From Oscillospiraceae bacterium (GTDB lineage Bacteria > Bacillota > Clostridia > Oscillospirales > Oscillospiraceae), in contig JAFUNI010000001.1 in assembly GCA_017482385.1 (NCBI GenBank), forward strand, positions 2,788-66,787: a stretch of DNA of 64,000 nt. The letters run 5' to 3'. This document shows, in pieces, positions 18,782 through 64,000 of the stretch. The notes below the pieces were generated by a model. It worked only from the letters and a program-made list of their open reading frames with translations, was not told where the DNA came from and did no database searches. How positions within the stretch are numbered: position 1 is the first letter of the stretch; every line of letters begins with the position of its first letter. The position numbers and the translations under genes were made by a program.

Positions 18782-18790
18782 ATTACCCCG

Positions 18791-18823
18791 CCCCGGAGGG
18801 AGAATATCTTCCTCCGGGGTTTC
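18791..18823 (+). terminator. strong hairpin, terminator-like with a weak U tract
   Basis: CCCCGGAGGGAGA-ata-TCTTCCTCCGGGG then TTT. Confidence 0.55.
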
Positions 18824-18841
18824 CCGGAAGGAGGAATTGCT

Positions 18842-20462: not shown

Positions 20463-20479
20463 ATTAGGAGGCGATTTTT

Positions 20480-20731
20480 ATGTTTGTTGATAGAAATCTT
20501 GTTCAAAGAATGAAGGATCAATATCCTCCCGGCACACGAATCGAACTGGACTTCATGGGTGATGATCCCCGTCCTATTGCTCCCGGCACAAAAGGTACGG
20601 TAAGAATCGTGGACGACATGGGTACCGTCCATTGCGATTTTGACAATGGCCGTCGCCTGGGTCTTATTCCTGGCGAGGATTCCTTCCATGCAATCACCGA
20701 AAGAACACGATCTGACAGAGACGCGAGGTGA
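20480..20731 (+). CDS. DUF4314-like ICE protein
   Basis: YPPGTRIEL..M.DD...PGTKGTV..VDD.GT.H..FDNG..LG pattern; ends RSDRDAR. Confidence 0.75.
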   Translation: MFVDRNLVQRMKDQYPPGTRIELDFMGDDPRPIAPGTKGTVRIVDDMGTVHCDFDNGRRLGLIPGEDSFHAITERTRSDRDAR

Positions 20732-20736
20732 ACGAT

Positions 20737-24679: not shown

Positions 24680-24762
24680 AGCGAGAAATAATCTTTATTG
24701 ATGAGGAGACCCTCACTCCGGAAGAATTGGAGGTAATCGACGATGGCGAGACCGAAGAATAA
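24676..24762 (+). CDS. possible 28-aa acidic peptide bridging to ardC
   Basis: ATGA overlap with the upstream stop; MKREIIFIDEETLTPEELEVIDDGETEE; contains the ardC RBS. Confidence 0.3.
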   Translation: MKREIIFIDEETLTPEELEVIDDGETEE

Positions 24763-29205: not shown

Positions 29206-29517
29206 GTGAGGCGCAGAAACAAAATCGACCTGCGGCTTAATGATGCGGAACTGGCACAGCTCAACCATGACGTTGAGAAATCCGGATGGTCGCGAGAAAA
29301 GTATTTACGAGCGTTGATCGCCAACCGACCGATCCGAGAGCGCCCTCCGATGGACCTCGTTTCTGTGCTGAAGCAGCTCCAGCAAATCAACAACAACATG
29401 AACCAAATCGCTGTGAAAGCAAACTCACTTAACTTCGTGGACACCGCAGCATACTGGGAAAACGTTGATCGCCTGGAGGAGCTTAAAGGAAAACTGTTGG
29501 AGGTGATGTACGGTTAA
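29206..29517 (+). CDS. mobC: MobC relaxosome accessory protein
   Basis: AAAGGAGG RBS, GTG start; RHH-like RLNDAEL...SREKYLR; QINNNMNQIA motif; TAATG overlap with relaxase. Confidence 0.85.
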   Translation: MRRRNKIDLRLNDAELAQLNHDVEKSGWSREKYLRALIANRPIRERPPMDLVSVLKQLQQINNNMNQIAVKANSLNFVDTAAYWENVDRLEELKGKLLEVMYG

Positions 29518-44408: not shown

Positions 44409-44460
44409 AAAATATAGATTAACACGGGGTATATATACCCATAAAACGGAGGAAAACAGC

Positions 44461-46551: not shown

Positions 46552-46563
46552 GGCGGTGGTATT

Positions 46564-50794: not shown

Positions 50795-53188
50795 ATGTTT
50801 GACGTATTTCGATTGAAAGAGGTCCTGGTGAAGTACAAAGAGGGCTTTCTATCCCAGCAGTGGCCTAATGAAAAATACAAGTGGGAGGCAGTAAGGTGTT
50901 TCCAGGACAATTGGGACATTAACGCACCCGATTTTGCAGATATGCTGACCCGTTCTCTGGCAAAAACATATAATCTGCTTGCTTCAATGAACAATTTCCC
51001 CGCAAAGATGATTCAGGGGTTTGCCAAGGTTGCCCCTGAAGAAGTCCGTGCTATGTACATTGCACTGTTCGATGAAAGCAAGGATGTAGTCAGCCGTATT
51101 CTTGAGTTCAAGAACCAGTCCTCAATTCTGCTTGAGAAGTATGGAAACGGTGCCGGGCAGCATTACCAGTACGAAAATGCTGTTAGCACATATCTGTGGC
51201 TGCGTTACCCGGATAAGTATTATATCTACAAGTATGGTGAGGTAAAAACCGTTGCAGATGAACTTGGTAGCGATTATCGCTTCAAAAAGGGTGCTTATGC
51301 TGATAACCTCCGTAATTTCTTTGCTCTCTATGATGAAATCCGTGCCGAACTGAAAAACGATGGTGGTTTAGCTAATCTCATGAGAGGTCAGCTTACGGAC
51401 GCTTGTTATCCCGATGCTGAACTCTGCACATTAACCATTGATGTTGGTTTCTATATCAGTAGATACTACAGCACTTCCAAGGGAAATCCGCCCACAGAAG
51501 AATGGTGGCCGACCGATTATTCTCCGGCACTGAGCGTAGATGACTGGATCGCTTTGCTTGGTGATGAGGAAGTATTCACCGTCAGCAGTCTGGAAATTAT
51601 GAAGAGAATGAAGGACTATGGCGGACAGGCTACTTGCAAGCAGCTCTCTGTCAAATACGGTGAAACGGTGAATTTTTACATCAGCGGTTCTGCCACCCTT
51701 GCAAAGCGTGTGTCCGAGAAAACCGGATGCCCTGTTATGCCCCGTGACGAGGAAAACTCCCGTTGGTGGCCGATCCTGTATCTCGGCAAAAATGCCCGTA
51801 AGGACGAAGAAGGCTCCTATGTATGGAAACTGCGCCCTGAACTGTCAGAGGCATTGGATAAAGTTGATTTGTCCAATGTAGAGCTGTTTGTTCAGGCACC
51901 TCCCGGAGAAGAAGCACACAATTATTGGTTCTTGAACGCCAACCCGAAAATCTGGAGTTTTTCTGCACTGGCTGTCGGTAGTGTACAGTCTTATACACTT
52001 TATAATGAAAATGGAAACAAGCGAAGAATATTCCAGAACTTCCTGGATGCAAAAGCCGGTGATATGATTATTGGCTATGAATCTACCCCGGTTAAGCAGA
52101 TTGTGGCTATCGGCCGTGTGAGTGCTGAGCAGGATGGAGAGAAAATCTACTTTGAAAAAATCGAAGGTCTTTCTTCTCCTATTGATTTTGCGACGCTTAA
52201 GGAATGCTCCGAACTTGCCAAAATGGAGTATTTCACTATGCAGCAAGGCAGCCTTTTCCGACTGACCAAGGGTGAGTATGATTTCATCATTGATATGATC
52301 CGTGAGGAAAACCCACTGGCTGTGGCTGATGAAATCGAAAAGTACGATAAAGAGGCGTTCTTGGATGAGGTCTACATGACCGAAGGTAAGTACGATACCC
52401 TTGTTGCTGTTCTGAAAAACAAGAAGAATATCATTTTGCAGGGTGCCCCCGGTGTTGGTAAGACCTTCGCCGCAAAGCGTCTGGCTTACTCTATCATGGG
52501 CGAAAAGGATGAAGGTCGTATTGAATTTGTGCAGTTCCATCAGAATTATTCCTATGAGGATTTCATGATGGGATATAAGCCGGTCAACGATGGCTTTGAG
52601 TTGAAGTACGGTATTTTCTACCGTTTCTGCCAAAAGGCCGCGAACCAGCCGGACAAGGATTTCTTTTTTATCATCGATGAAATTAACCGTGGCAACATGA
52701 GCAAGATCTTTGGTGAGCTGCTGATGTTGATCGAACGGGATTACAGAGGCACCAAAGCAACGCTGGCGTACAACGGTATGACATTCTCTGTACCGAAAAA
52801 TCTGTATATCATCGGCATGATGAATACCGCAGACCGTAGCCTTGCAATGATTGACTATGCATTGCGCCGTCGTTTTAGCTTCTTTGACATCGAACCCGGC
52901 TTTGCTTCCGAGGGCTTTATGAAGTACCAGCAGAGTCTGGATAATGAGACCTTCTCTCTGTTGGTTGGCAAGGTCCAGGAACTGAACAAGGAAATTTCGA
53001 TGGATAAATCCCTCGGCAAGGGCTTCTGCATTGGCCATAGCTATTTCTGCGGACAGAGCGAATGTACCGAAGAGTGGCTGCAGGCAATTGTTGACTATGA
53101 CATTCTGCCCATGTTGAGCGAATATTGGTTTGATGATCTGAACAAGCTTCAGCGTTGGGAGAATATTCTGCGTGGTGTATTTCAATGA
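50795..53188 (+). CDS. mcrB: McrB-like GTPase with an EVE-like domain
   Basis: YWFLNANPKIW...AKAGDMIIGYES (EVE-like); GAPGVGKT, QFHQNYSYEDF, IDEINRG, MNTADRS, ALRRRF. Confidence 0.9.
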   Translation: MFDVFRLKEVLVKYKEGFLSQQWPNEKYKWEAVRCFQDNWDINAPDFADMLTRSLAKTYNLLASMNNFPAKMIQGFAKVAPEEVRAMYIALFDESKDVVSRILEFKNQSSILLEKYGNGAGQHYQYENAVSTYLWLRYPDKYYIYKYGEVKTVADELGSDYRFKKGAYADNLRNFFALYDEIRAELKNDGGLANLMRGQLTDACYPDAELCTLTIDVGFYISRYYSTSKGNPPTEEWWPTDYSPALSVDDWIALLGDEEVFTVSSLEIMKRMKDYGGQATCKQLSVKYGETVNFYISGSATLAKRVSEKTGCPVMPRDEENSRWWPILYLGKNARKDEEGSYVWKLRPELSEALDKVDLSNVELFVQAPPGEEAHNYWFLNANPKIWSFSALAVGSVQSYTLYNENGNKRRIFQNFLDAKAGDMIIGYESTPVKQIVAIGRVSAEQDGEKIYFEKIEGLSSPIDFATLKECSELAKMEYFTMQQGSLFRLTKGEYDFIIDMIREENPLAVADEIEKYDKEAFLDEVYMTEGKYDTLVAVLKNKKNIILQGAPGVGKTFAAKRLAYSIMGEKDEGRIEFVQFHQNYSYEDFMMGYKPVNDGFELKYGIFYRFCQKAANQPDKDFFFIIDEINRGNMSKIFGELLMLIERDYRGTKATLAYNGMTFSVPKNLYIIGMMNTADRSLAMIDYALRRRFSFFDIEPGFASEGFMKYQQSLDNETFSLLVGKVQELNKEISMDKSLGKGFCIGHSYFCGQSECTEEWLQAIVDYDILPMLSEYWFDDLNKLQRWENILRGVFQ

Positions 53189-54237
53189 TTAAGGACAAGA
53201 GCATATTCATAAAAAACATTTATTATATGCTGTCCTATGCCTTTACAACCTTAACCCCAACCGAGGATGACGAAATTGCTGCGGAGGAATTTGACAACAT
53301 ACATAATCTCTTCGCAGCCATCCTCGCAAAGGGCATCGGTCAGCAGTTAAAGCAGGGGCTATATCGGGAATATCTGAATCGCAAAGAAGATATGCCTGTT
53401 ATGCGCGGAAAAATTGATATGCCTGGGACCATCAAGAATAGACTCGCCCGGAAACAGGTGCTTACCTGCGAATACGATGAGTTATCCGAGAACAACCTGC
53501 TCAATCAGACCCTCAAAACAACTGTTATGTTGCTGATTCGCCATGCAAAGGTTGATGCTGAGTATAAGAGTGACCTCAAGAAGGAGATGCTCTTCTTTTC
53601 GGAAGTGGATACCATCGAACCCACATCCATAAAATGGTCAACTATTCGTTTTCAGCGGAGCAATCAAAGCTATCGAATGCTCATCAGCTTGTGCCAGTTC
53701 ATTCTGGAGGGTATGCTTCTTACTACAGATCAAGGCGAATACAAAATGGCATCCTTTGTTGATGAACAGCGTATGTGTCGTTTGTATGAGAAATTCATCC
53801 TTGAATACTTTAGCAAGGAATACCCGGCGCTTGGTGTTCGGGCATCTCAGATTCCCTGGGCGTTGGATGATGGTATTGGGACAATGCTGCCTGTTATGCA
53901 AAGTGACATCACTCTGAGTTATGGCAGCAAGGTTCTGATTATCGATGCGAAATATTATGCCCATACCACGCAGGTTCAGTATGACAAGCATACACTGCAT
54001 TCCAACAATCTCTATCAGATTTTCACTTATGTCAAAAACAAAGGCTCTGAGTTTGGTGATAAACCACACGAGGTTTCGGGTATGCTGCTGTACGCCCAAA
54101 CCGATGAAGCTGTTCAGCCAGATAATAACTATATGATGAGCGGAAATCGAATCAGCGTGAAAACACTCGATCTGAACTGCGATTTTTCAGTGATAGCGGC
54201 TCAATTGGACTCAATTGCAGATAGCTTTATACAATGA
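53185..54237 (+). CDS. mcrC: McrC-like PD-(D/E)xK nuclease
   Basis: IKNIYYMLSYA N-terminus, QSDI...IIDAKYY, NLYQIFTY; ATGA overlap with mcrB. Confidence 0.92.
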   Translation: MIKDKSIFIKNIYYMLSYAFTTLTPTEDDEIAAEEFDNIHNLFAAILAKGIGQQLKQGLYREYLNRKEDMPVMRGKIDMPGTIKNRLARKQVLTCEYDELSENNLLNQTLKTTVMLLIRHAKVDAEYKSDLKKEMLFFSEVDTIEPTSIKWSTIRFQRSNQSYRMLISLCQFILEGMLLTTDQGEYKMASFVDEQRMCRLYEKFILEYFSKEYPALGVRASQIPWALDDGIGTMLPVMQSDITLSYGSKVLIIDAKYYAHTTQVQYDKHTLHSNNLYQIFTYVKNKGSEFGDKPHEVSGMLLYAQTDEAVQPDNNYMMSGNRISVKTLDLNCDFSVIAAQLDSIADSFIQ

Positions 54238-54253
54238 TGGGAGGTGTACCCTA

Positions 54254-56404
54254 ATGGCGGATAAATTATATAGGCAAACCATATGGCATGAAATATATAC
54301 CGGCAGAAAAATTAATTGGGAGTCCTTTGTAAAGTATTTTGGCAGAAACGGGGATGACGAATCCTGGTATATTTACTATATTGAGGAAGACAATGAACCA
54401 AGATTTGAACTGCATGCGCACATTGATGGGGACACCGTTGTGTCTGCAGAACCGTTTAAGGCGGATGTGTATGGTGGGCATGGACGCCCAACAATCGATG
54501 AGAAAAGCCTAACCTCAAGTGAAAAGAAATATGCTATTGCCATCTTTGAGGAATGTTTTCCTGATCGGGTAGGAGAATCTTTCGACGGGATAATTGACAC
54601 AGCGATAGCATCTCATGTGGAATACGGTGGCTATAGTATCCTTAAACAAGGATCGGACCATGTTTTATTTCTTTCGCCAGAGGGCAAAAAGGTTAAACTT
54701 AATCACAAGATACTGCTAAAAGCAATTGATTATTCGCATCTTGACTTGGCAGTTCTGCGAGATGCTGATGTTATAGCTGAGTTTGCACATTGCTTTGGTG
54801 TTAAGACCCACGAGCCTCTCGTAGCTATAATGCTTACCATTTCCCCAAAAGAGTACAGTAACTATGCTGTGCTTGAACGGAAATACCGGTATGAGAAAAT
54901 GGAAGAAGCGGTTGCAAGTGGAGATATAAAGCGGTGTGTACCATATATTGATGTTTTAGCCGATGCTGAGAACAACGTCCTGTCGTTTTGTGAGACTGCC
55001 GTCACACAGAATAACAAAACCATGCTTTCCTGGCTAATTGATAATCTTTCCGGTGCGAAGTGTAACTTGGCATCGCTCTTAGGTACAGCAGTAAAAAAGG
55101 ATAACGAGGAGCTTTTTTACTACCTGCTTAACTCTGGACTGGTCAGTGCATCTGACTCGGATTCCACGCAATGGAATTCGCCAATGCATGCTGCGGCTTA
55201 TTATAAGGGGAACGAAAAATATGTGATGCCATTACTTCAACACGGTTTCTCATTGGCTGCAAAAACAGGGTATAGATTATTCAGCACCTATACTATGGAC
55301 GAAATTGCGGAGCTGCTCTTATATGAGGTTGAACTTGATCAAAACACTGTGAACCGCATCTATGCAGAAGGTAGAGCTGATGTCATTAACCAATTGGAGC
55401 TGGAGCCATTGCGTTTCTGTTCAAATGATGTGTTGTTTGCAGCATATGTTACATGTGGAGATTTTGAGAAGTTTTCTGCACTCCTGAAAAACGGTTATAG
55501 AAATAGTAGTCATGAGCTTTTTGCGTTGGCGTATAAGCATTCTCCAGCTTGGACAGATTTGTGGCTTCAAAATGGATTCGACATCAATTGTAGTGATGCC
55601 CGTCTTTTGCATAAGGCTTGCGAAGACCTGGATGTGGATTTTGCTATTTATTTATTAGCAAACGGCGCAAACCCGTATTTGAAGGGACAATATTCCCAGA
55701 CGGTATTCGAGAAAGCTGGTGGTTTTCATGGATACCTATCGGATGAACAGCAAAAAGAGAAAGAACGTCTATGCAAATATTTGCTGGATATCGGTTTGGA
55801 TCCGATTGCTGAGTCGAGAAAAGGACCAAGCATTCTGCAGTATCTACTCGGCAAAACAGAGGCATTTGATTTCGTATTAATTGATTGGCTCGCGGAGCAC
55901 AATAAGATAAATAGCCCGGATTTACCAGATGGATGCACAGACATAAAGCATCTACCAATTGCGCATATCATGGATGAGTTTTCGAGAAAATATAATCCGT
56001 TGGTGTTGCGATATATCATTCAGAGAGGTGCTATTACCAATGCAGAAGGCATCACAGATGATAAGATTTTTTTGGTAGCTTGCAAATTGTGTGATCTGTC
56101 AGATCTGCAATTGGTAGTATCAGCTGGTGCAAACATCCACGAAACCGACAAAACATATAGCAATCGTGGAACTAACGGTCTTTATACTGCGGTGGCGTGT
56201 GGTCGTCCATATGAGATAATCAAATATCTTGTTGAGCTCGGATTAGATGTTAATAGTGTAAGTCCAGCTAAGCCGTGGAGTTGGGGATCTTCGAAAATGA
56301 TGCCTGCAACATCGGTCTTGGATGTTGCTGAAAAGCACGGGAATCAGGAGATTATCGAATACTTGATATCTCAAGGCGCATTGCATGCGACAGAATTAGT
56401 CTAA
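54254..56404 (+). CDS. ankyrin-repeat protein with an unknown N-terminal domain
   Basis: GAGGTG RBS; SPMHAAA, LLHKAC...YLLANGANP, GLYTAVACG..EIIKYLVELGLDVN, SVLDVAEKHGNQEIIEYLISQGA. Confidence 0.82.
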   Translation: MADKLYRQTIWHEIYTGRKINWESFVKYFGRNGDDESWYIYYIEEDNEPRFELHAHIDGDTVVSAEPFKADVYGGHGRPTIDEKSLTSSEKKYAIAIFEECFPDRVGESFDGIIDTAIASHVEYGGYSILKQGSDHVLFLSPEGKKVKLNHKILLKAIDYSHLDLAVLRDADVIAEFAHCFGVKTHEPLVAIMLTISPKEYSNYAVLERKYRYEKMEEAVASGDIKRCVPYIDVLADAENNVLSFCETAVTQNNKTMLSWLIDNLSGAKCNLASLLGTAVKKDNEELFYYLLNSGLVSASDSDSTQWNSPMHAAAYYKGNEKYVMPLLQHGFSLAAKTGYRLFSTYTMDEIAELLLYEVELDQNTVNRIYAEGRADVINQLELEPLRFCSNDVLFAAYVTCGDFEKFSALLKNGYRNSSHELFALAYKHSPAWTDLWLQNGFDINCSDARLLHKACEDLDVDFAIYLLANGANPYLKGQYSQTVFEKAGGFHGYLSDEQQKEKERLCKYLLDIGLDPIAESRKGPSILQYLLGKTEAFDFVLIDWLAEHNKINSPDLPDGCTDIKHLPIAHIMDEFSRKYNPLVLRYIIQRGAITNAEGITDDKIFLVACKLCDLSDLQLVVSAGANIHETDKTYSNRGTNGLYTAVACGRPYEIIKYLVELGLDVNSVSPAKPWSWGSSKMMPATSVLDVAEKHGNQEIIEYLISQGALHATELV

Positions 56405-56427: not shown

Positions 56428-57408
56428 ATGGACAATGATGCAAAACTCAGACCATTGTATCTTGCTAAAATTCTATATGAACAGACCGACGAGGAGCATT
56501 TTCTGACAACCGCCCAGTTAATTCAAATCCTTGAGGATCAGTATGGAATTAAGGCCCATCGACAGACGATCAAGGCAGAGATTGAACTGCTCAAGCAATT
56601 TGGCCTTGAGATTGAAGAGGTTAAGTCCACTCAAAATCGATACAATCTCTTTGGACGCCGTTTTGATGCCCCGGAACTGAAGTTGCTGATTGATGCGGTG
56701 GAGTCTTCCAAATTCATCACAGCAGGGAAAAGCAAGGAGCTGGTCGAGAAAATCAGTTCCTTGACCAGCACCCATGTGGCAGCCTCTCTTAGACGGAATG
56801 TTAGCTGCGAAGGGCGGATCAAGCCTGGAAACGAGCGCATCTATATCATCATAGATGCGATCAATGATGCAATTAACAAAAACAAGAAGATTTCCTTCCA
56901 GTATTTCCAATACAACGTAAAGAAGGAAAAGAAGTTAAAACGCAACGGTGAGCCTTATGTTATTACTCCTTTGCACTTGGTCTGGAATGGTGACTGCTAC
57001 TATATGGTCGGAGTTTATGAATATAAGCAGCGACTCGGAAGCTTCAGAGTAGACCGTATTGCAAAGTGTCCTACGATTCTCGAAGAGGAAGGAACACCTG
57101 CACCGGAAGGCTTCAATATTGATGAACACATCAACACCACCTTTCATATGTTCAGTAGTGCACGTGAAGAAGTCGAGCTTGTCTGCGATAACGATGTGAT
57201 GGACTCCATCATTGATCGTTTCGGTGAGGATGTAACAACCTATGCCAATGATATGACTTCCTTCCGCGCTGTTGTGAATATCGCGGTGAGTCATGTCTTC
57301 TATAGTTGGGTGTTTGGCTTCGGTGGGAAGGTTAAAATCAAAGGTCCAGACATTGTGAAGGAAAAGTATGCGGAGATGCTAAACGCTGCAGTAAAGGGGT
57401 TAGAATAG
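56428..57408 (+). CDS. WYL-domain transcriptional regulator (wHTH-WYL-WCX)
   Basis: N-terminal wHTH, PLHLVWNGDCYYMVG, FRVDRI, WVFGFGGKVKIKGP. Confidence 0.9.
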   Translation: MDNDAKLRPLYLAKILYEQTDEEHFLTTAQLIQILEDQYGIKAHRQTIKAEIELLKQFGLEIEEVKSTQNRYNLFGRRFDAPELKLLIDAVESSKFITAGKSKELVEKISSLTSTHVAASLRRNVSCEGRIKPGNERIYIIIDAINDAINKNKKISFQYFQYNVKKEKKLKRNGEPYVITPLHLVWNGDCYYMVGVYEYKQRLGSFRVDRIAKCPTILEEEGTPAPEGFNIDEHINTTFHMFSSAREEVELVCDNDVMDSIIDRFGEDVTTYANDMTSFRAVVNIAVSHVFYSWVFGFGGKVKIKGPDIVKEKYAEMLNAAVKGLE

Positions 57409-57436
57409 TAACCATCGATTGTGAGGAGGCAGAAGG

Positions 57437-60079
57437 ATGAGAACAGACAATGTGCAGATGCTTACAGACACTTTGCAAATTTGTGAGCAGGGTTATTATC
57501 TACATAATGGCAGGAAAGTGAAACTGAAGCTTTCTCCTGCTGAGATGCGCAGCGTTCGCGTTTTTCTGCCAGATGAAATTGCGGCACTTGCGGAATATAA
57601 GGATTTTCAACATGTCCACGTCATCGGACGTTGTGGCCATGGCTGCGAGAATATGGATTCCTTTTCCCTTGCACGTAAGAGATATGAAGATTGCGGTTAC
57701 ATGTTTACCGGCAAGGATGCGAAGGAGATTCTTGTTCTAAATCTGGCGAACCCAGTGAATCCGGGCGGAGGTGTCCGTAGAGGAGCCAGAGCGCAGGAAG
57801 AGGATCTTTGCCGTAAGAGTTCTTTGCTGCTTTCCCTGGAAGGCAGAGCGGCGAGAGAATACTATGAATATAATAGAGCGCTTCACACCTACATGGGCTC
57901 CGATGCGATCATTATTACGCCCAAGGTAGAAATTATCAAAGACGAGAATGGGGAGCTTCTGGACGAGAGCGTAATTGTTGCGGTGATGACCTGTGCTGCG
58001 CCCTGCTTGACAAATGGCATGGAAGGCCTGACTCAAAAGCAGTATGAGGACATGGTATACAACCGTATCGTTGGAATGCTTCGCTGTGCGGCATACATGG
58101 GCTACAAGAATCTCGTCTTGGGAGCCTTCGGCTGCGGTGCCTTTGGCAATGATGCAAAAATCATGTCAGATCTCTTCTATCGTGCATTGAAGGAATTTGA
58201 CTTTGATGGCATGAAGGAAAAGGACATGTTCAGGAGAATTGATTTTGCGGTGTTGTCCAGAGGCCATGAGCAGTACAACTTCAAAGAGTTTTATCGGAAT
58301 TTTGGAGATAACAATTTCTACCGGGATGAGGATAACGCTGTAAAAATGCGTGCACTGGAACGCATTAAAGAGACTGAAAGGAACCTGGATAAGATCCGAG
58401 GCTCCTTGATCGGTGGTGCCATTGGCGACGCGCTTGGCTATCCGGTGGAATTCTTAAGCCGGGACATGATCGTTGAAAAGTATGGCGAACCCGGCATCAC
58501 AGAATACGAGCTTGATCGCAGGAGCGGGAAAGCGCTAATATCCGACGATACACAGATGACGCTTTTCACCGCAAATGGAATTCTTGTAGGAGAAACGCGG
58601 TTGTGCATGCGGGGAATTGGTGGAGTGCCTAGCGCCTATGTGCCGCAGTCCTATCAGGATTGGTTGACAACCCAGGAGGAGGATTACCAGACAGGAAAGC
58701 ATACCAAACGCTACAACCGCAATGGCGGTATTTCCTGGCTGCTGGATGTGCCTGAACTGTACAGCAGAAGAGCTCCTGGTAATACGTGCCTGTCTGCCTT
58801 GATAGAGGCACGGCAGAACCGGGGCGGCGGTGACTACATCGAGAATCCCAGAAACAGCAGCAAGGGCTGCGGCGGTATTATGAGAGTTGCGCCGCTGGGC
58901 ATCCACTATGGGAGTATACCCGTTGAAACCTTGGATAAAGAGGCAGCTGTGCTGTCTGCGATTACCCATGGCCATCCGCTGGGATATCTGCCGTCTGCAG
59001 TTTTAACACATATATTGAATCGGATTGTATTTCCCGGCGAACAGCATTTGATGCTCAAGGAGATTATCGTTGAGGCAAAGGAAACGGTCAGAAGGCTGTT
59101 CGAGGGAACAGAGTATGTGGATGAGCTTTGCGAGATTGTTGATAAGGCAATCGAGCTGGCTGAAAACGAAGACACTGACGTAAATAATATTAAGCGTTTA
59201 GGTGAAGGCTGGGTCGCAGAGGAAACACTGGCGATTGCAATCTATTGTGCTCTGCGCTATGAGCATGATTTTTCGGGTGGCATCATTGCTGCAGTTAACC
59301 ACGATGGAGATAGCGATTCAACAGGCGCAGTTGTAGGCAATATCCTTGGTGCGATCAATGGCTACGATGCAATTGAGTCTAAATGGAAGCAGAAGCTGGA
59401 GCTGCTGGAGGTTCTTTTAGAAATGTCTGCAGACCTTTGCCATGGCTGCCATATGAGCGAATATAGCACCTATCACGATGCGGATTGGGCCCGGAAGTAT
59501 ATGGATATGCATTGGAAGGATCCTGAGTGCGTTTTCTTCTGGCATGAGTATGATGTAAATGGGTGCTTTAGCAATTGGTATACAAGCCCCTTTGTTATTG
59601 ATGATTTCTGCTATGACCATGTGGAGCAGTATCTTATGGCACAGAAGGCAAAGCTGTTCCATGATGCGAGGGCGTATACGGCAATCTTAAAGGCAACAAA
59701 CCCGAAGGAATGTAAAAGACTTGGCCGAGAGGTGAAGCCCTTTGATGCAGCCACCTGGGACAAGGTTCGGTATAAGGTGCTGCTTGCTGGCGTCAGGGCG
59801 AAGTTCTCTCAGAATGAGGAACTGAAGAAAAAGCTCCTGGCTACCGGAAATGCCATCCTTGCAGAAGCAAGTCCCTATGATGATATCTTCGGTATTAAGC
59901 TGGATGCACATACTGCAGCTACAGTGCCCTGCGAGCAATGGCCTGGCAAGAATTTGTTGGGTAAGGCGTTGATGGAGGTAAGGGCCGAGCTGGCAGGAGA
60001 GACGCCGGTAGAAGATATTATTAATTCCTCTAGGTTAGATACTATCAACAGAATTTTGCGCAATGGAGAAACCTGCTAA
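57437..60079 (+). CDS. fusion of TIGR02452/PARG-type macrodomain + ADP-ribosylglycohydrolase (ARH/DraG) + NADAR
   Basis: LNLANPVNPGGG..GARAQEE and LGAFGCGAF; GAIGDALG, SDDTQMT, GCGGIMR, GDSDSTG; FSNWY...VEQYLMAQKA, EASPYD, GKNLLGKALMEVR. Confidence 0.9.
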   Translation: MRTDNVQMLTDTLQICEQGYYLHNGRKVKLKLSPAEMRSVRVFLPDEIAALAEYKDFQHVHVIGRCGHGCENMDSFSLARKRYEDCGYMFTGKDAKEILVLNLANPVNPGGGVRRGARAQEEDLCRKSSLLLSLEGRAAREYYEYNRALHTYMGSDAIIITPKVEIIKDENGELLDESVIVAVMTCAAPCLTNGMEGLTQKQYEDMVYNRIVGMLRCAAYMGYKNLVLGAFGCGAFGNDAKIMSDLFYRALKEFDFDGMKEKDMFRRIDFAVLSRGHEQYNFKEFYRNFGDNNFYRDEDNAVKMRALERIKETERNLDKIRGSLIGGAIGDALGYPVEFLSRDMIVEKYGEPGITEYELDRRSGKALISDDTQMTLFTANGILVGETRLCMRGIGGVPSAYVPQSYQDWLTTQEEDYQTGKHTKRYNRNGGISWLLDVPELYSRRAPGNTCLSALIEARQNRGGGDYIENPRNSSKGCGGIMRVAPLGIHYGSIPVETLDKEAAVLSAITHGHPLGYLPSAVLTHILNRIVFPGEQHLMLKEIIVEAKETVRRLFEGTEYVDELCEIVDKAIELAENEDTDVNNIKRLGEGWVAEETLAIAIYCALRYEHDFSGGIIAAVNHDGDSDSTGAVVGNILGAINGYDAIESKWKQKLELLEVLLEMSADLCHGCHMSEYSTYHDADWARKYMDMHWKDPECVFFWHEYDVNGCFSNWYTSPFVIDDFCYDHVEQYLMAQKAKLFHDARAYTAILKATNPKECKRLGREVKPFDAATWDKVRYKVLLAGVRAKFSQNEELKKKLLATGNAILAEASPYDDIFGIKLDAHTAATVPCEQWPGKNLLGKALMEVRAELAGETPVEDIINSSRLDTINRILRNGETC

Positions 60080-60099
60080 AGAAGGAAGGTGGACCAAGC

Positions 60100-62004
60100 A
60101 TGCTATGGTCAGAATTTTATGACGGATTTTGGGATTGGTCCGATTCTACGAGGAAATCCAGGATCTCATCGCTAGAAGATATTGGTTCTGGTGATGAGGT
60201 TGTAGATGCGATTTATGAAATCGAGGATCCAAAGATCCGCACACAGCTGATTCGCAAGGCAATAAAGCTAGGCGCAAAATTTACTACCGATGATTTCCAA
60301 AACCTTGAAGGTGAATTGCCTATTGAGGTTTATGAGGAGTTGGGCCGATACGCTGGCTTTGATGCAGATAATCCGACCTATGACAAGTCCGATACTTCAT
60401 GGTCTCATTTCTACGACAATTTCACAGAGTGGGATCCGGATACGCAGACTGCAACCATTAACGATCTGCAACAAATGGGCAAGCACGATGAGGTCGTGGA
60501 CGCCATACTCATTTTGGAAGATAATGAGCAGCGAGCTATATTGACGCGCAAGGCTATAGCTTTCAAGGTAAAGTTTACTCACGAAGATTTTGAGAATCTG
60601 CAGGATGAGTTGCCTGCTGAGGTTTACCGGGAGCTGGCAGCCTATACCGGACATTCTGTCGACTGTCCGGATTATGACAAGGACAACCACACGTGGAAGT
60701 ACTTCTATGAGAACTGCGGTGGTTGGACCGAGCAGATCCAGTTGGGCGCAATTGCTTCGTTGAAGACGATCGGTAGCCAGAAGCAGGTTATGGAAGCAAT
60801 TTTGGAACTGGAGACAGAGGCCCCGAAAATTGCACTGGTAGAGCTGGCTATCAAACGAAATATTGTTTTCTCGAGAGATAGTTTGCAGGAACTAGACGGC
60901 AGCCTTCCTGATGAAGTGTTTCAGCGGATTCTCCGGATAGCGGATGTTCCTGAGGATGACCTTTATTTCGATGAAGACAACATTGACTGGGATGATTTCT
61001 ATGGCAGCTACTCCGACTGGAACGACGAGGTTCTTCTTCGAAGGATCAAAAAGCTAAGAAGCTTTGGACCATCTGAAGAGGTCGCAGATGCAGTCCAATG
61101 CATGCCAAACGCTGAGGCCGAAGACCTTTTATACAAGAAAGCGGTTGCTGCAGGGGTACGTTTCACTGATGATGAAATGCTTGCTATGGGCAATCTTGTC
61201 GATGTCCTTAAGAGTGCGATTAACAACCTTGATGTGCCTTCAACACCAAGAAAAACAGTGGGTGCACCGATTCAACAAAAAGTGGTGACGCCGACACCGG
61301 GGAGAACGTATATGGGCTTAGAGAATACTGTTGTGGATATCCAGATATTGAACGTTGAGGACCACGGATCCAATGTGCTGGTAAACTATACCAAGGTATT
61401 TGGCAACGGTTCTAAGAAAACCTGCCGCACGCACGTTAGGGATCTTGGTGGATATTATAGATTCTTTTCTGCCAAGCCGATTGTCACTGCAGAATGCTTG
61501 GGTAAGGTCTACCTTGGCCTTATTAAGAGCGATGTTCGTATCCTCTTTATTGTGAAGCTCAATGATGGCTCAGCAGAACTGATCCAGGCGAAGGAAGGCT
61601 CTGAAGCAAGCCTAAAATTATTGCAGTTGAGTGAGGATACGGCTAATGGTACGGTATCTGCACCGGTTCCTCCTCCGCCTGCTCAGACAAGAAACGTTGA
61701 GCCCTACCAGCTGAAGAAAAATGAACTGCCGCAGGGTAGCTATCTTGTAGGTAGAGATATCCCAGCGGGAACCTATGACTTTTTCGTTGTGTATGGAAAT
61801 GGTGGCAGCTTTGATATTGCTAAGTACGATTCCAAGGGAGAGATCATCAACGGAACCTGGACATCCTTCTGGGTCGGTCTCAAAGAGGATTATGAAAAGC
61901 GGGAACTGATTCACATTTCCTGCCAGGAAGGCTACACAATTAAGATCAAGGGCAGTGTGATTCTAAAAATAGCAAGATCCCAAAGCGTCAAAATTGATCT
62001 TTGA
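60100..62004 (+). CDS. hypothetical protein with 98-aa tandem helical repeats and two C-terminal beta-rich domains
   Basis: W..FY...W...I..L...G...EV.DA repeated at aa 3, 101, 199 and 297; C-terminal GSYLVGRDIPAGTY. Confidence 0.8.
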   Translation: MLWSEFYDGFWDWSDSTRKSRISSLEDIGSGDEVVDAIYEIEDPKIRTQLIRKAIKLGAKFTTDDFQNLEGELPIEVYEELGRYAGFDADNPTYDKSDTSWSHFYDNFTEWDPDTQTATINDLQQMGKHDEVVDAILILEDNEQRAILTRKAIAFKVKFTHEDFENLQDELPAEVYRELAAYTGHSVDCPDYDKDNHTWKYFYENCGGWTEQIQLGAIASLKTIGSQKQVMEAILELETEAPKIALVELAIKRNIVFSRDSLQELDGSLPDEVFQRILRIADVPEDDLYFDEDNIDWDDFYGSYSDWNDEVLLRRIKKLRSFGPSEEVADAVQCMPNAEAEDLLYKKAVAAGVRFTDDEMLAMGNLVDVLKSAINNLDVPSTPRKTVGAPIQQKVVTPTPGRTYMGLENTVVDIQILNVEDHGSNVLVNYTKVFGNGSKKTCRTHVRDLGGYYRFFSAKPIVTAECLGKVYLGLIKSDVRILFIVKLNDGSAELIQAKEGSEASLKLLQLSEDTANGTVSAPVPPPPAQTRNVEPYQLKKNELPQGSYLVGRDIPAGTYDFFVVYGNGGSFDIAKYDSKGEIINGTWTSFWVGLKEDYEKRELIHISCQEGYTIKIKGSVILKIARSQSVKIDL

Positions 62005-62034
62005 CGGCATTACACCCGAGAAGGAGGTGGACTC

Positions 62035-62604
62035 ATGAGCTTTGACATTGATAATATTCCAATGCAGATTATCAGAAGCAACCGGAAGACAATTTCAATT
62101 GAACTGAAGCTGACCGGACTCGTTGTGCGAGCTCCGAACCAGATGAGCCAGCGTGAGATCCACACCTTCCTGACCAAGAAGAGCGCCTGGATTGAAAAAC
62201 ACTATAAGCGGTTGCAGGAACGGCAAGAACAGCTGCGACAAGTTGGGACTTTTACGGAAGAAGAAATTCGGGAATTGGCCCAAAGCGCTTTGGCTGTAAT
62301 TCCGGAAAAGGTACGGTACTATGCACCAATTGTCGGCGTCGATTACGGACGTATAACAATACGGAACCAGCGATCCAGATGGGGTAGCTGCTCCAGTAAA
62401 GGAAACCTGAATTTCAACTGTCTACTCATGCTGCTGCCGGATGATGTTATCGACAGCGTTGTTGTACATGAGCTGTGCCACAGAAAGCATATGGATCATT
62501 CGTCCAGCTTTTATGCGGAAGTGGAACGTGTTTTTCCAGAGTATCAGAAATGCCAGAAATGGCTTAAGGAAAACGGTAGTGCCTATCTCTGCCGTCTTCC
62601 TTAG
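62035..62604 (+). CDS. M48/YgjP (DUF45) metallopeptidase
   Basis: RSNRKTISI, IRNQRSRWGSCS, VVVHELCH..H.DHS..FY. Confidence 0.9.
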   Translation: MSFDIDNIPMQIIRSNRKTISIELKLTGLVVRAPNQMSQREIHTFLTKKSAWIEKHYKRLQERQEQLRQVGTFTEEEIRELAQSALAVIPEKVRYYAPIVGVDYGRITIRNQRSRWGSCSSKGNLNFNCLLMLLPDDVIDSVVVHELCHRKHMDHSSSFYAEVERVFPEYQKCQKWLKENGSAYLCRLP

Positions 62605-62618
62605 AAAGTAGGTAATGT

Positions 62619-64000
62619 ATGCCAAATCAATTTCTAACAAACTACACGGAGGTTACCTTCCTGGAGAAGATCAAGGATAGCCTTCGCCATTGTACAGCGT
62701 TCAATTTCTCGGTCAGCTTCATCAAGAAGGCTGGCCTGGTTTTGCTGTTCAAAGATATTGAGGCTGCGGTTGAACGCGGTGCCGTTGGACGCATTATTAC
62801 CTCTACTTATCAGAACTTTACGGATATTGAGTCCTTGAAAAGCTTCTTTGCACTCCAAAGCCGGTGTGAGAATTTCACCTGCCATCTGGATCACGAGTGT
62901 TTCCATGACAGCGGTTACATGACACTTGGTTATCATTCCAAGGGTTACCTCTTTGAGTATGATAACCGGTGTGAGGTCATTGTTGGCTCTTCCAATATTA
63001 CTCGGTATGCGTTGCTGAAGAATGTTGAGTGGGATATTGCTGTGTCCGAAGAGAAAACCTCCAAGGTTTTCGCAGAGGCAATGCATGAGTTTGAAGAGAA
63101 GTGGGCTGAGACGCATCCCCTGAATTTGGATATTATCAATCTGTATGCCAACAAGCTCAACTTTGCCATTGAACGGTGGGATATGGACTATGATTTACAT
63201 ACAGCAAATATTAAACCCAACTTCATGCAGCGGAAAGCGCTGAAGGAATTAAATCGTTACCGTGCGGTGGGAACAGCGAGAGCATTGGTGGTTGCTGCCG
63301 CTGGTTCCGGTAAAACTTATCTGGCTGCATTTGACGCGTTGAATTTCTCGCCAAAGCGCCTGCTTTATATCGTTCACGAGGGTTCTATCCTGAAGAAATC
63401 ACTGGAAACCTTCCAGGATGTCTTCGGTAATGCGGTAAGCTATGGTATCTTCAGTGGAGAGAGCAAGGAAATGGACGCAGACTTTGTGTTTGCGACGAAT
63501 ATTACGATGGCAAAGTCGCTGGAATTGTATCCTAAGGACTACTTTGATTACATCATCGTTGACGAATGCCACCATGCTACTGCTGAAACCTATCGTAGGA
63601 TTATTGGCTATTTCGAGCCGGAATTCCTGTTAGGCCTGACGGCAACACCGGAGCGCCTGGACAATCAGGATGTTTTCGATCTCTTTGACAAGAACGTTCC
63701 CTATGAGTTGCGGTTGCGGGATGCTATCATCAATGATCTGGTTGTCCCGTTCAAATACTATGGTATTCGTGATGAGCTTATTAACTACGGCCTAACTAAG
63801 AGTGAAGAACGCAAAATGGTGGCGCAGCTTGCAACTGCAGACCATTGTGATTTTATAACGAGAGAGATCGAGAAGCACCGTCCGGAGGGCAAGCTTAAAG
63901 CCTTGGCCTTCTGCCGCAATGTTACCCATGCTCGCATGATGTGCGAGACTATGGGCGATCGTTACAAGACCGCATATCTTACTGGCAAGAATGATATCGG
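62619..64000 (+). CDS. PLD-nuclease/SF2 helicase, SauUSI-like type IV restriction enzyme (truncated by the window end)
   Basis: Translated by hand from ATG 62619: SVSFIKKAG, HSKGYLF...GSSNIT (PLD), AAGSGKT, IIVDECHHA, LGLTATPER; open to the window edge, so absent from the ORF track. Confidence 0.85.
   Translation, partial: MPNQFLTNYTEVTFLEKIKDSLRHCTAFNFSVSFIKKAGLVLLFKDIEAAVERGAVGRIITSTYQNFTDIESLKSFFALQSRCENFTCHLDHECFHDSGYMTLGYHSKGYLFEYDNRCEVIVGSSNITRYALLKNVEWDIAVSEEKTSKVFAEAMHEFEEKWAETHPLNLDIINLYANKLNFAIERWDMDYDLHTANIKPNFMQRKALKELNRYRAVGTARALVVAAAGSGKTYLAAFDALNFSPKRLLYIVHEGSILKKSLETFQDVFGNAVSYGIFSGESKEMDADFVFATNITMAKSLELYPKDYFDYIIVDECHHATAETYRRIIGYFEPEFLLGLTATPERLDNQDVFDLFDKNVPYELRLRDAIINDLVVPFKYYGIRDELINYGLTKSEERKMVAQLATADHCDFITREIEKHRPEGKLKALAFCRNVTHARMMCETMGDRYKTAYLTGKNDI

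What the first reader, a model, noticed from the sequence alone, without database searches (positions are those of the whole stretch)
57437..60079. One protein fusing three unrelated ADP-ribose-removing folds (PARG-type macrodomain + ARH + NADAR)
Seen: macrodomain about 57437-58310 with GGG-x7-QEE; ARH/DraG about 58390-59430 with GDALG, DDTQM and GDSDS metal ligands; NADAR about 59530-59990 with FSNWY, VEQY and EASPYD (the usual WG reads FG). Known: TIGR02452 proteins are bacterial PARGs, ARH/DraG enzymes reverse protein ADP-ribosylation (Arg/Ser), and NADARs remove guanine-linked ADP-ribose from DNA as DarT1 antitoxins; DarT toxins modify ssDNA and some phages ADP-ribosylate host proteins. 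Inferred: a broad-spectrum eraser that either undoes phage ADP-ribosylation or shields the ICE's transferred ssDNA from recipient DarT-type defences. I do not know of a characterised triple fusion.
Basis: partly seen in the sequence, partly recalled or inferred. Interest (0 to 1): 0.8.

Follow-up and report, generated by a model that had tools for sequence, protein, structure and literature searches.

The report
Three-in-one ADP-ribose eraser enzyme
One 880-residue bacterial protein really does join three unrelated, intact enzymes that strip ADP-ribose off proteins, RNA and DNA; the design is common but untested in gut Clostridia, and it most likely acts as a general antidote to ADP-ribosylating toxins from phages and rival bacteria.

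Summary
ORF 57437-60079 (+, 880 aa) encodes a bacterial-type PARG macrodomain, an ARH/DraG-type hydrolase and a NADAR domain. All three pass curated profile cut-offs, match solved structures by fold, keep their catalytic residues and are under strong purifying selection. It is not an assembly chimera: independent metagenomes from four studies carry the intact ORF. It is also not rare. Of the 120 nearest 90%-identity clusters, 47 have the same three domains and 63 add a fourth (MacroD-type) eraser domain. More distant relatives shuffle the same domains in many orders. I found no paper that characterises the fusion. No ADP-ribosyltransferase partner is conserved in 36 dereplicated loci, so it is an orphan eraser, not an antitoxin. 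In this window it is the second gene of a portable block: WYL regulator, eraser, 634-aa repeat protein, YgjP, Type IV restriction enzyme. That block lies in the defence-island cargo of an Oscillospiraceae conjugative element. The best reading is a broad-spectrum protective eraser against foreign ADP-ribosyltransferases. It is a new variant of a known kind, of moderate interest.

The parts
57437..60079 (+). Whole gene: 880-aa PARG-ARH-NADAR triple ADP-ribosylhydrolase
   Evidence: ORF; domains; model pLDDT 89.6; intact in independent assemblies, with only in-frame indels.
57437..58321 (+). Bacterial-type PARG macrodomain (aa 1-295). Catalytic loop GGG(110-112)-x7-QEE(120-122); diphosphate loop GAFGCGAFGND (aa 229-239).
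   Evidence: PF10021 and TIGR02452 above cut-off. Aligned to PARG structures 5ZDA and 3SIG. Foldseek TM 0.91 to 3SIH. G110-112, E121 and E122 are invariant in 44 of 44 sequences.
58322..58387 (+). Linker (aa 296-317), within the long helix 293-337 that joins the PARG and ARH domains
   Evidence: DSSP on the model shows H293-337. Least conserved internal segment, 51% mean identity.
58388..59527 (+). ARH/DraG-type ADP-ribosylglycohydrolase (aa 318-650) with a conserved family-specific C-terminal extension (aa 651-697). Metal-site motifs GDALG..VEF (330-339), SDDTQM (369-374), GDSDST (624-629).
   Evidence: PF03747 E 6e-63. Aligned to DraG 2WOC and MJ1187 1T5J. Foldseek hits to MJ1187, ARH3, Tri1 6DRH and Listeria 8ZA7. 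D331, E338, D370, D371, T372, D625, D627 and S628 are invariant.
59528..60001 (+). NADAR domain (aa 698-855), stand-alone/YbiA type. Residues E730, K737 and D815 align to conserved positions of 8BAU.
   Evidence: PF08719 E 2e-49 and TIGR02464 at 153 bits. Aligned to 8BAU and 2B3W. Foldseek TM 0.78, rmsd 1.5 A. The E. coli C7 NADAR catalytic residues are E88, K95 and D171 (PMC11543638); the correspondence to E730, K737 and D815 is inferred from motif position. These residues are kept in 42-43 of 44 sequences.
60002..60076 (+). Disordered C-terminal tail (aa 856-880). In the four-domain relatives a Macro (PF01661) domain follows the NADAR domain.
   Evidence: pLDDT below 50 for aa 856-880. Four-domain relatives of about 1050 aa.
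56428..57408 (+). WYL + WCX regulator, first gene of the portable module, 28 nt upstream of the eraser. An N-terminal HTH is inferred, not tested.
   Evidence: Pfam WYL and WCX; PADLOC WYL. In sheep run X9 the match starts exactly at 56428. The same WYL-eraser junction occurs in L122 behind a different system.
60100..62004 (+). 634-aa helical-repeat protein of unknown function, co-travelling with the eraser in this clade only
   Evidence: 77% identical to the gene next to the eraser in L030 and present in L122. Homologs also occur without any eraser. No ART fold detected.
62035..62604 (+). YgjP-like metallopeptidase, part of the module
   Evidence: PF01863 E 2e-45; same position in L122 and L123.
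62619..64000 (+). N-terminal part of a SauUSI-like Type IV methyl-directed restriction enzyme (PLD nuclease + helicase); the ORF runs off the window
   Evidence: Pfam PLDc_2 and ResIII; PADLOC mREase_IV E 1e-69. The full-length 935-aa version, with DUF3427, is in L122.

Best explanation
The gene encodes a cytoplasmic, stand-alone ('orphan') multi-specific ADP-ribosylhydrolase. Three independently folding catalytic domains sit on one chain, so one gene product can reverse chemically different ADP-ribose linkages. By analogy with characterised enzymes, the expected activities are as follows. The PARG-type macrodomain would cut O-glycosidic ribose-ribose bonds, 2'-OH-linked RNA ADP-ribose and phosphate-end-linked ADP-ribose. 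The metal-dependent ARH domain would remove ADP-ribose from protein side chains (Arg or Ser type). The NADAR domain would cut N-glycosidic base-linked ADP-ribose on G (and C) in DNA and RNA. There is no cognate transferase. The gene moves as cargo, here as the second gene of a WYL-regulated block that also carries a Type IV restriction enzyme, inside the defence island of an Oscillospiraceae conjugative element. Its most likely role is protective. It would undo ADP-ribosylation inflicted by foreign transferases (phage-encoded ARTs and interbacterial ART toxins), acting as a catalytic, broad-range immunity factor for the host and therefore for the element. What is shown: the gene, the folds, the intact active sites, purifying selection, the abundance and modularity of the family, the absence of a conserved ART partner, and the defence-island and mobile-module context. 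What is inferred: the substrate of each domain, the protective role, and induction through the WYL regulator.
For: Identity and integrity of the three domains. Active sites kept in 42-44 of 44 homologs and the three domains equally conserved. dN 0.07-0.26 with saturated dS, dN/dS about 0.04-0.05 where it can be computed. Real gene: intact in contigs from four independent studies, with only in-frame indels. The family accumulates eraser domains (47 triple and 63 triple+Macro among the 120 nearest clusters; PARG-ARH, ARH-NADAR, PARG-NADAR and other combinations among 50% representatives), which fits selection for breadth. No conserved partner: 123 immediate neighbours from 35 representative loci fall in 136 Pfam families, none seen more than 3 times, and de novo clustering finds no recurring ART except KptA in 3 of 36 groups. 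Defence context: Type I R-M, McrBC and a Type IV PLD-helicase flank it. The same module follows an MTase/SNF2/PglZ system in L122. Four-domain relatives lie beside BREX+WYL+AAA_13 and AbiE/SUKH/WHH genes. Others lie beside a nuclease toxin/YezG immunity pair and Fic. Precedents: bacterial PARGs protect E. coli from the RNA-ART toxin RhsP2 as well as the cognate immunity protein does (PMC11833690). ARH-type immunity proteins are known (Tri1 6DRH and Listeria 8ZA7 are structural hits; Imm-ADP-RGHD in PMC3482391). NADARs reverse G- and C-ADPr on DNA and RNA.
Against: No biochemical or genetic data exist for any member, and substrate assignments rest on distant homologs (19-36% identity to solved structures). 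Some relatives sit among housekeeping genes (NUDIX, GNAT, rhodanese), which would also fit a metabolic role. Association with toxin/immunity or defence genes is frequent but not quantified against a background. The ARH domain scores far below the equivalog cut-offs for DraG (71.6 against 337) and Tri1 (59.5 against 490), so its acceptor specificity is open. Evidence for transcription is weak: low-depth fragments in runs only guessed to be RNA.
Confidence: 0.55

Rival explanations
1. Counter-defence for the mobile element. The eraser would protect incoming ICE DNA, or the ICE's establishment, from recipient defences that use ADP-ribosylation (DarT1/DarT2) or ADPr-derived signals or toxins. This would be analogous to the phage orphan NADAR AdfN.
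For: The gene is on a conjugative element (relaxase, T4CP, VirB4, ArdC). Several relatives are in Tn916-like ICE cargo. Phage orphan NADARs neutralise DarTG1 (PMC11825919). A homolog of the co-travelling 634-aa gene lies next to a relaxase in L117.
Against: The gene is not near the relaxase or the ArdC/primase block. It lies about 27 kb downstream, in an operon-like block with a host-protective Type IV restriction enzyme. Relatives also occur in non-mobile chromosomal contexts. None was found in 2.9 million viral contigs. The NADAR is of the stand-alone/YbiA type, and in tests YbiA and T4 NADAR failed to rescue DarT1 toxicity in vivo, while no NADAR cleaved T-ADPr. In the papers consulted, T-ADPr is listed as reversed by DarG2, TARG1 and SCO6735, not by PARG, ARH or NADAR enzymes.
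Confidence: 0.15
2. Housekeeping or salvage enzyme acting on small molecules. It would clear free ADP-ribose derivatives (O-acetyl-ADPr, ADPr-1''-phosphate, Appr>p from KptA-dependent RNA repair, reactive riboflavin intermediates) rather than macromolecular adducts.
For: The NADAR domain passes the cut-off of TIGR02464, 'riboflavin biosynthesis intermediates N-glycosidase'. Chromosomal relatives lie next to NUDIX and GNAT genes. NUDIX is in the module in L122, with RtcB nearby. KptA/Tpt1 lies within 8 kb in 3 of 36 groups. Aravind and colleagues argue that many prokaryotic and viral Macro/NADAR domains target soluble ADPr derivatives (PMC9503650).
Against: A housekeeping function does not explain the patchy, horizontally moved distribution, the defence-island and ICE-cargo locations, the WYL regulator, or why a PARG-type and an ARH-type (macromolecule-directed) domain are fused and co-conserved.
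Confidence: 0.15
3. Antitoxin of an unrecognised toxin encoded in the same block (for example the 634-aa repeat protein or the N-terminal part of the ankyrin protein), that is, a novel ART-eraser toxin-antitoxin or abortive-infection system.
For: The 634-aa gene follows the eraser at a 20-nt gap and co-travels with it in the window, L030, L122 and X9. Residues 376-535 of that protein are unmodelled.
Against: Most eraser loci lack that gene. Its homologs occur without any eraser. No ART fold or Pfam/PADLOC hit was found. The ankyrin gene is outside the portable module.
Confidence: 0.05

Closest known systems
Bacterial-type PARG (DUF2263/TIGR02452; T. curvata PARG 3SIG, D. radiodurans PARG 5ZDA, S. 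coelicolor SCO0909)
   Same: Same macrodomain fold (TM 0.91), GGG-x7-QEE catalytic loop and diphosphate loop. Also horizontally mobile with a patchy distribution, and proposed as orphan immunity against ART toxins (PMC11833690).
   Different: The characterised enzymes are single-domain proteins of about 250-280 aa. Here the domain is the N-terminal third of an 880-aa protein, joined by a long helix to two other erasers. Identity to the solved structures is 28-32%.
ARH-type immunity proteins and DraG (Tri1 of Serratia 6DRE/6DRH; Listeria Lmo0067 8ZA7; DraG 2WOC)
   Same: ARH fold with conserved acidic metal-site motifs. Tri1 is the precedent for an enzymatic immunity protein that reverses a toxin's ADP-ribosylation.
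   Different: It is not an orthologue of either: it scores 59.5 against 490 for the Tri1 model and 71.6 against 337 for the DraG model. No adjacent ART effector is present. It has a family-specific 47-residue C-terminal extension (aa 651-697). The acceptor residue is unknown.
NADAR hydrolases (DarG1 antitoxin of DarT1; phage AdfN; P. nicotianae NADAR 8BAU; E. coli YbiA)
   Same: NADAR fold (rmsd 1.5 A to 8BAU) with E, K and D at the positions conserved in 8BAU. Orphan NADARs on mobile elements have a precedent in AdfN.
   Different: No DarT1 is adjacent. It is closest to the stand-alone/YbiA type rather than to DarT1-linked NADARs. No DarT1-linked NADAR was retrieved at E<0.001. Whether it has the basic N-terminal extension proposed to bind ssDNA was not examined. 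It is fused rather than free-standing.
Tandem NADAR+Macro proteins and poly-immunity fusion proteins described by comparative genomics (PMC9503650; PMC3482391)
   Same: The same logic: several conflict-related domains with complementary specificities fused on one chain. ADP-ribosyl glycohydrolase and ankyrin repeats are listed there as immunity modules, and firmicute proteins with up to 10 immunity domains are noted.
   Different: I did not find the specific PARG-ARH-NADAR (plus or minus Macro) architecture, its WYL-headed module or its abundance in gut Clostridia described in the papers I could read.
DS-32 (NADAR + phosphoribosyltransferase) anti-phage system and PADLOC candidate PDC-M42
   Same: A NADAR domain in a validated or candidate defence system. 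The window's NADAR matches PDC-M42C at E 6e-47.
   Different: It scores 51.7 against a cut-off of 240 for DS-32B. No PRTase and no PDC-M42A/B partners are present.

Membership tests
Bacterial-type PARG (PF10021 / TIGR02452) | Profile score above the curated cut-off | tested here: met
   PF10021 96.2 bits against 23.5; TIGR02452 149.7 against 50.
Bacterial-type PARG (PF10021 / TIGR02452) | Macrodomain fold with the PARG catalytic loop GGG-x6-8-QEE and a diphosphate-binding loop | tested here: met
   GGGVRRGARAQEE and GAFGCGAFGND align to PARG structure 5ZDA. TM 0.91 to 3SIH. Invariant in 44 of 44 sequences.
Bacterial-type PARG (PF10021 / TIGR02452) | Hydrolysis of poly(ADP-ribose) or 2'-O-ADPr-RNA | not testable with these tools
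   Needs an enzyme assay.
ARH / DraG superfamily (PF03747) | Profile score above cut-off and the all-helical ARH fold | tested here: met
   213.6 bits against 26.2. Foldseek TM 0.84 to MJ1187 and about 0.76 to ARH3.
ARH / DraG superfamily (PF03747) | Acidic residues of the binuclear metal site (the D/E, DD-T and D-x-D-T/S motifs) | tested here: met
   GDALG..VEF, SDDTQM and GDSDST align to the corresponding DraG motifs. Invariant in 44 of 44 sequences.
DraG (TIGR02662) or Tri1 (NF041672) orthologue | Equivalog-level profile score | tested here: not met
   71.6 against 337 and 59.5 against 490. It is a superfamily member only.
NADAR superfamily (PF08719) | Profile score above cut-off, the YbiA-like fold, and E/K/D at the conserved active-site positions | tested here: met
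   168.6 bits against 35.1. TM 0.78 and rmsd 1.5 A to 8BAU. E730, K737 and D815 align to conserved residues of 8BAU and are kept in 42-43 of 44 sequences. The catalytic residues of E. coli C7 NADAR are in PMC11543638.
DarTG1 antitoxin (DarG1) | Encoded next to a DarT1 ADP-ribosyltransferase | tested here: not met
   No ART is among the window neighbours. No ART family recurs among 123 neighbours of 35 representative loci.
DarTG1 antitoxin (DarG1) | DarT1-linked NADAR subtype with the basic N-terminal extension proposed to bind ssDNA | tested here: inconclusive
   The best structural and sequence matches are the stand-alone 8BAU and YbiA 2B3W. No DarT1-linked NADAR was retrieved at E<0.001. The extension itself was not modelled against a DarG1 structure.
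Cognate immunity protein of a polymorphic ART toxin (Tri1-like, Imm-ADP-RGHD) | Adjacent ART-domain effector gene | tested here: not met
   The toxin genes seen near relatives are nucleases (Endonuclease_NS_2, WHH), not ARTs. None is in the window. The 'orphan immunity' reading does not need this feature.
Leading-region anti-defence gene of a conjugative element | Located in the first-transferred region next to oriT/relaxase, together with ArdC/primase-type genes | tested here: not met
   ArdC is at 24743-25753, the Toprim gene at 27110-28048 and the relaxase at 29517-30947. The eraser is at 57437, behind the T4SS genes and among R-M systems. oriT itself was not mapped, so transfer order is inferred.
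DS-32 anti-phage system (NADAR + PRTase) | DS-32B equivalog score and an adjacent PRTase | tested here: not met
   51.7 against 240; no PRTase nearby.

The most novel reading that the evidence does not exclude
An 'anti-anti-defence' enzyme. This would be a WYL-controlled eraser encoded inside defence islands that restores host immune proteins (restriction enzymes, BREX, CRISPR effectors) or host nucleic acids after phage- or plasmid-encoded ADP-ribosyltransferases such as AcrIF11-type enzymes have inactivated them. That would be a third layer of the arms race, for which no natural bacterial example has yet been identified (PMC12421852 states that none was found).
Probability: 0.15. Interest if true: 0.8.

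Novelty: new variant of a known kind. Interest (0 to 1): 0.55.

Why it matters
All three known families of ADP-ribose erasers are present on one polypeptide, and a fourth eraser domain is added in even more relatives. This is the clearest genomic sign that some gut bacteria are selected for breadth of de-ADP-ribosylation, meaning they face many different ADP-ribosylating attacks. A single clonable gene that might neutralise protein-, RNA- and DNA-directed ART toxins would do three things. It would test directly the recent proposal that orphan PARGs, ARHs and NADARs are general immunity enzymes. It would offer a tool to diagnose which linkage an unknown ART toxin makes. And it would show how domain fusion and WYL-type regulation package such immunity for horizontal transfer. 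Public annotation currently hides the family: NCBI calls relatives only 'TIGR02452 family protein'.

Tried and rejected
1. Assembly chimera: rejected. Contigs from four independent studies span the domain junctions, with only in-frame indels, and more than 100 homologous clusters are full length.
2. Only one domain active, or a decaying domain: rejected as far as sequence can tell.
3. Conserved ART partner or TA system: I searched by de novo clustering of neighbours within 8 kb in 36 dereplicated groups and by a Pfam census of 123 immediate neighbours from 35 representative loci. Nothing recurs more than 3 times. The census output lists only the top 25 families, so a single-locus ART neighbour cannot be excluded.
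4. The 634-aa downstream protein as a hidden ART toxin or obligate partner: rejected. Its homologs occur without erasers and no ART fold was found.
5. Phage carriage: none in IMG/VR with the close-relative scan.
6. Promoter and terminator scans around the block gave no more hits than shuffled sequence, so they are uninformative.
7. Tandem DNA repeats in the 634-aa gene: none.
8. tRNA attachment site: no tRNA in the window. No integrase is in the window, so the right end of the element is not defined.
9. The 2012 paper that defined NADAR could not be retrieved, so I could not check whether it lists this exact architecture.
10. Expression: runs guessed to be RNA give only sparse low-depth fragments, which is not conclusive.
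11. An apparent full-length match in Muribaculum turned out to be PARG-ARH-Macro, not the triple.
Full report
OBSERVATION. A GAGGAGG ribosome-binding site ends 8 nt upstream of the ATG. Pfam finds three non-overlapping domains, all far above the gathering scores:
- PARG_cat_microb, aa 11-169, E 3e-27
- ADP_ribosyl_GH, aa 322-647, E 6e-63
- NADAR, aa 700-852, E 2e-49

NCBIfam adds TIGR02452 (aa 93-286) and TIGR02464 (aa 699-852), both above cut-off. The equivalog models for DraG, Tri1 and the DS-32 NADAR score far below their cut-offs. They align to the corresponding motifs of solved enzymes. GGG-x7-QEE and the GAFGCGAFGND loop align to the PARG of PDB 5ZDA-5ZDG. GDALG..VEF, SDDTQM and GDSDST align to DraG. 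E730, K737 and D815 align to conserved residues of the P. nicotianae NADAR 8BAU. The catalytic triad of E. coli C7 NADAR is E88, K95 and D171 according to PMC11543638. An AlphaFold2 model built on 44 homologs is confident (mean pLDDT 89.6, pTM 0.74), with a long helix (293-337) joining the PARG and ARH domains and a disordered tail (856-880).

IS IT REAL, AND ARE ALL THREE DOMAINS ALIVE? Contigs from four unrelated studies (gut, sheep and pig metagenomes) cover the gene. One 7.2-kb contig spans McrB to the eraser and another 6.6-kb contig spans WYL to beyond YgjP. The only indels listed inside the ORF are in-frame: -3 nt at 58674 in a variable ARH loop, and +6 nt at 59521 in the ARH-NADAR linker. 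Across 44 homologs of 55-88% identity, the catalytic residues of all three domains are kept in 42-44 sequences, and the domains are equally conserved (69, 65 and 62% mean identity to the window protein). Against five DNA relatives, dN is 0.07-0.26 while dS is saturated. Where dN/dS can be computed it is 0.04-0.05. A chimera or a fusion with dead domains is therefore very unlikely.

HOW COMMON IS IT? A search of 5.8 billion clustered proteins returned full-length relatives for every one of the 120 best hits (59-99% identity). Re-scoring them with domain HMMs built from my alignment gives 47 PARG-ARH-NADAR, 63 PARG-ARH-NADAR-Macro (a fourth, MacroD-type eraser), 5 PARG-ARH and a few still longer arrangements. 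The only names sources give them are 'TIGR02452 family protein' from Clostridia, Clostridiales and Eubacteriales MAGs. In the exhaustive search of 50%-identity representatives, the exact triple collapses to essentially one representative. The same domains, however, appear as:
- PARG-ARH (21)
- ARH-NADAR (11)
- PARG-NADAR (4)
- ARH-PARG, NADAR-ARH and Macro-ARH
- three ARH domains in a row
- one 4240-aa protein with seven NADAR domains

In species-representative genomes the multi-domain forms are in Lachnospiraceae, Oscillospiraceae, Ruminococcus, Anaerovoracaceae and a Muribaculum (PARG-ARH-Macro). The ARH core alone reaches Bacteroidota, Spirochaetales, Collinsella and Synergistales. The triple is thus a tight, widely disseminated clade within a family that shuffles eraser domains freely. 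No paper in the held library describes or tests this architecture. Aravind's group has noted tandem NADAR+Macro proteins in viruses and poly-immunity fusion proteins in firmicutes. The 2012 paper that defined NADAR could not be read.

CONTEXT IN THE WINDOW. The chromosomal flank (a class II aaRS at 7686-9179, 86-90% identical to Faecousia and other Oscillospiraceae MAGs from ruminant hindguts) is followed by a drop in G+C and then a Gram-positive conjugative element. The element carries:
- ParA/ParB, an LPXTG SpaA-type adhesin and two sortases
- an ArdC-like protein, a DUF3991-Toprim protein, a relaxase, a T4CP, a VirB4-like ATPase and a CHAP hydrolase

Downstream comes a co-directional, tightly packed cargo:
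- a Sel1 protein and a PD-T4-6-like Ser/Thr kinase
- Type I R-M (hsdM, hsdS, hsdR)
- EVE-McrB and McrC
- a 729-aa ankyrin protein
- a WYL-WCX regulator, the eraser, a 634-aa repeat protein and YgjP
- a SauUSI-like Type IV PLD-helicase that runs off the window

Gaps between the last five genes are 14-30 nt, and the three start sites I inspected (WYL, eraser, 634-aa gene) each have a Shine-Dalgarno sequence. Two observations define a portable module. In a sheep metagenome the match starts exactly at 56428, the WYL start codon, with unrelated sequence upstream. In a 113-kb contig from another sample the same WYL / eraser (881 aa) / 634-aa / YgjP / PLD-helicase-DUF3427 / NUDIX string follows a different system (MTase, SNF2 helicase, PglZ).

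CONTEXT OF RELATIVES. I examined 36 dereplicated multi-domain groups. Individual examples:
- Tn916-like ICE cargo next to a nuclease-toxin/YezG-immunity pair and Fic
- beside BREX, a WYL regulator and an AAA_13 protein
- among AbiE, SUKH and WHH genes
- beside a transposase and Fic
- a plainly chromosomal setting between NUDIX, GNAT and rhodanese genes

De novo clustering of all neighbours within 8 kb found only weak recurrences: a WYL regulator upstream (3 groups), a SauUSI-like Type IV enzyme (3 groups), KptA/Tpt1 (3 groups, confirmed as PF01885) and two others. A Pfam census of 123 immediate neighbours from 35 representative loci gave 136 families, none in more than 3 proteins and no ART family among those listed. 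The 634-aa gene is 77% identical next to the 87%-identical eraser in L030. Its small family (28 clusters, no Pfam) also occurs without erasers. Its model is a helical-repeat solenoid plus a small beta domain with no ART-like match. The eraser is therefore a stand-alone, 'orphan' gene, not half of a toxin-antitoxin pair.

MECHANISM. What follows from established enzymology of the three families:
- Bacterial PARGs hydrolyse PAR. The NAR 2025 study also shows they hydrolyse phosphate-end ADPr on nucleic acids and the 2'-O-ADPr-RNA made by RhsP2. Two bacterial PARGs protected E. coli from RhsP2 as well as the cognate immunity protein did.
- ARH enzymes use a binuclear metal site to remove ADPr from Arg or Ser. 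Tri1 and the Listeria protein are ARH-type immunity proteins.
- NADARs of every subtype tested cleave G-ADPr (and C-ADPr) on DNA and RNA but not T-ADPr or phosphate-linked ADPr.

The three domains thus cover largely non-overlapping linkage chemistries, and the frequent fourth MacroD-type domain would extend the range further. I infer that the fusion is selected for breadth: one gene, one regulator and stoichiometric co-expression of a set of antidotes. Because there is no cognate transferase, the targets must come from outside the locus. The module's company (Type I and Type IV restriction, McrBC, BREX-like systems, Abi, polymorphic-toxin immunity genes) and its WYL-type regulator point to a protective role against phage-encoded or competitor-delivered ARTs. 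On my own knowledge, WYL-type regulators control BREX, CBASS and DNA-damage regulons. I put this reading at about 0.55.

RIVALS. (i) Counter-defence for the ICE, about 0.15. It has a phage precedent (AdfN). Against it: the gene is far from the relaxase/ArdC/primase region and is co-packaged with host-protective restriction genes. It occurs on chromosomes and was not found in viral contigs. It also carries the NADAR subtype related to those that did not rescue DarT1 in cells. (ii) Small-molecule housekeeping, about 0.15. This is suggested by the TIGR02464 match and by NUDIX, KptA and RtcB neighbours, but it does not explain the mobile, defence-island distribution or the co-conservation of PARG and ARH. 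(iii) Antitoxin to a hidden toxin in the block, about 0.05 (see above).

COMPARISON AND NOVELTY. Each domain is a bona fide member of its superfamily (see the membership table). None is an orthologue of a characterised enzyme: identity to solved structures is 19-36%, and the equivalog cut-offs for DraG, Tri1 and DS-32B are not met. The idea that orphan PARGs, ARHs and NADARs serve as defence or immunity modules is already in the literature (PMC11833690, PMC11125620, PMC11825919, PMC3482391). What is new here is:
- the fused, all-three-families architecture, and its four-domain sibling
- its abundance in gut and rumen Clostridia
- its packaging in a WYL-headed module that hops between defence islands

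I therefore file it as a new variant of a known kind, with interest 0.55. The most novel reading still open is an anti-anti-defence role: reversing ART-type anti-defence proteins such as AcrIF11, for which no natural bacterial eraser has yet been found. I give that a probability of about 0.15.

Noticed in passing
window 60100-62004: A 634-aa protein with four ~95-aa helical repeats (pLDDT above 90), an unmodelled middle (aa 376-535) and a small beta domain. It has no Pfam or PADLOC hit and belongs to a small family of 28 clusters. It travels with the eraser in this clade, but homologs occur alone beside a relaxase, beside a Y-family polymerase plus HTH, or beside a 5'-nucleotidase plus NUDIX.
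   Followed up: yes
window 56428-64000 (and L122 6326-15715): A portable module: WYL regulator, eraser, 634-aa protein, YgjP metallopeptidase, SauUSI-like Type IV PLD-helicase-DUF3427 enzyme, and NUDIX in L122. It is found behind three different upstream contexts: McrBC+ankyrin here, MTase/SNF2/PglZ in L122, and unrelated sequence in a sheep metagenome.
   Followed up: partly
proteins P0178, P0154, P0160: Giant multi-eraser proteins in the 50%-identity library: one of 4240 aa with seven NADAR domains, and two of about 1650 aa with three ARH domains each.
   Followed up: no
L008 1443-2030, L010 9099-9674, L017 4715-5269: A KptA/Tpt1 RNA 2'-phosphotransferase (an ART-superfamily enzyme, PF01885) lies within 8 kb of the eraser in 3 of 36 dereplicated groups. 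RtcB lies about 9 kb downstream of the module in L122. This may hint at an RNA-repair link.
   Followed up: partly
window 50795-54237: A McrBC-type system whose McrB carries an EVE (modified-base reader) domain in front of the AAA_5 GTPase module. McrC overlaps the annotated TTG start of the ankyrin gene.
   Followed up: no
window 54215-56404: A 729-aa protein with C-terminal ankyrin repeats and an N-terminal region of about 300 aa without any family hit. It lies outside the portable module. Ankyrin repeats are a known immunity-protein class in firmicutes (PMC3482391).
   Followed up: no
window 43158-44408: A Ser/Thr protein kinase matching the PD-T4-6 defence family (E 1e-43). Its 3' end overlaps the start of hsdM of a Type I R-M system (44365-50780).
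   Followed up: no
window 9200-21700: The left border of the element follows a class II aaRS gene, with a drop in G+C from about 58% to 50%. Then come ParA/ParB, a 1303-aa SpaA-repeat protein, a 772-aa LPXTG pilin-like protein and two sortases, probably the mating adhesin. No integrase or tRNA is in the window.
   Followed up: partly
window 58674 and 59521: Natural in-frame indel polymorphisms in the eraser gene in other metagenomes: -3 nt in a variable ARH loop, and +6 nt (CCTGAG) in the ARH-NADAR linker.
   Followed up: yes
protein P0007, P0106, P0107: NCBI annotation names these three- and four-domain proteins only 'TIGR02452 family protein', so the ARH, NADAR and Macro domains are invisible to text searches.
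   Followed up: no
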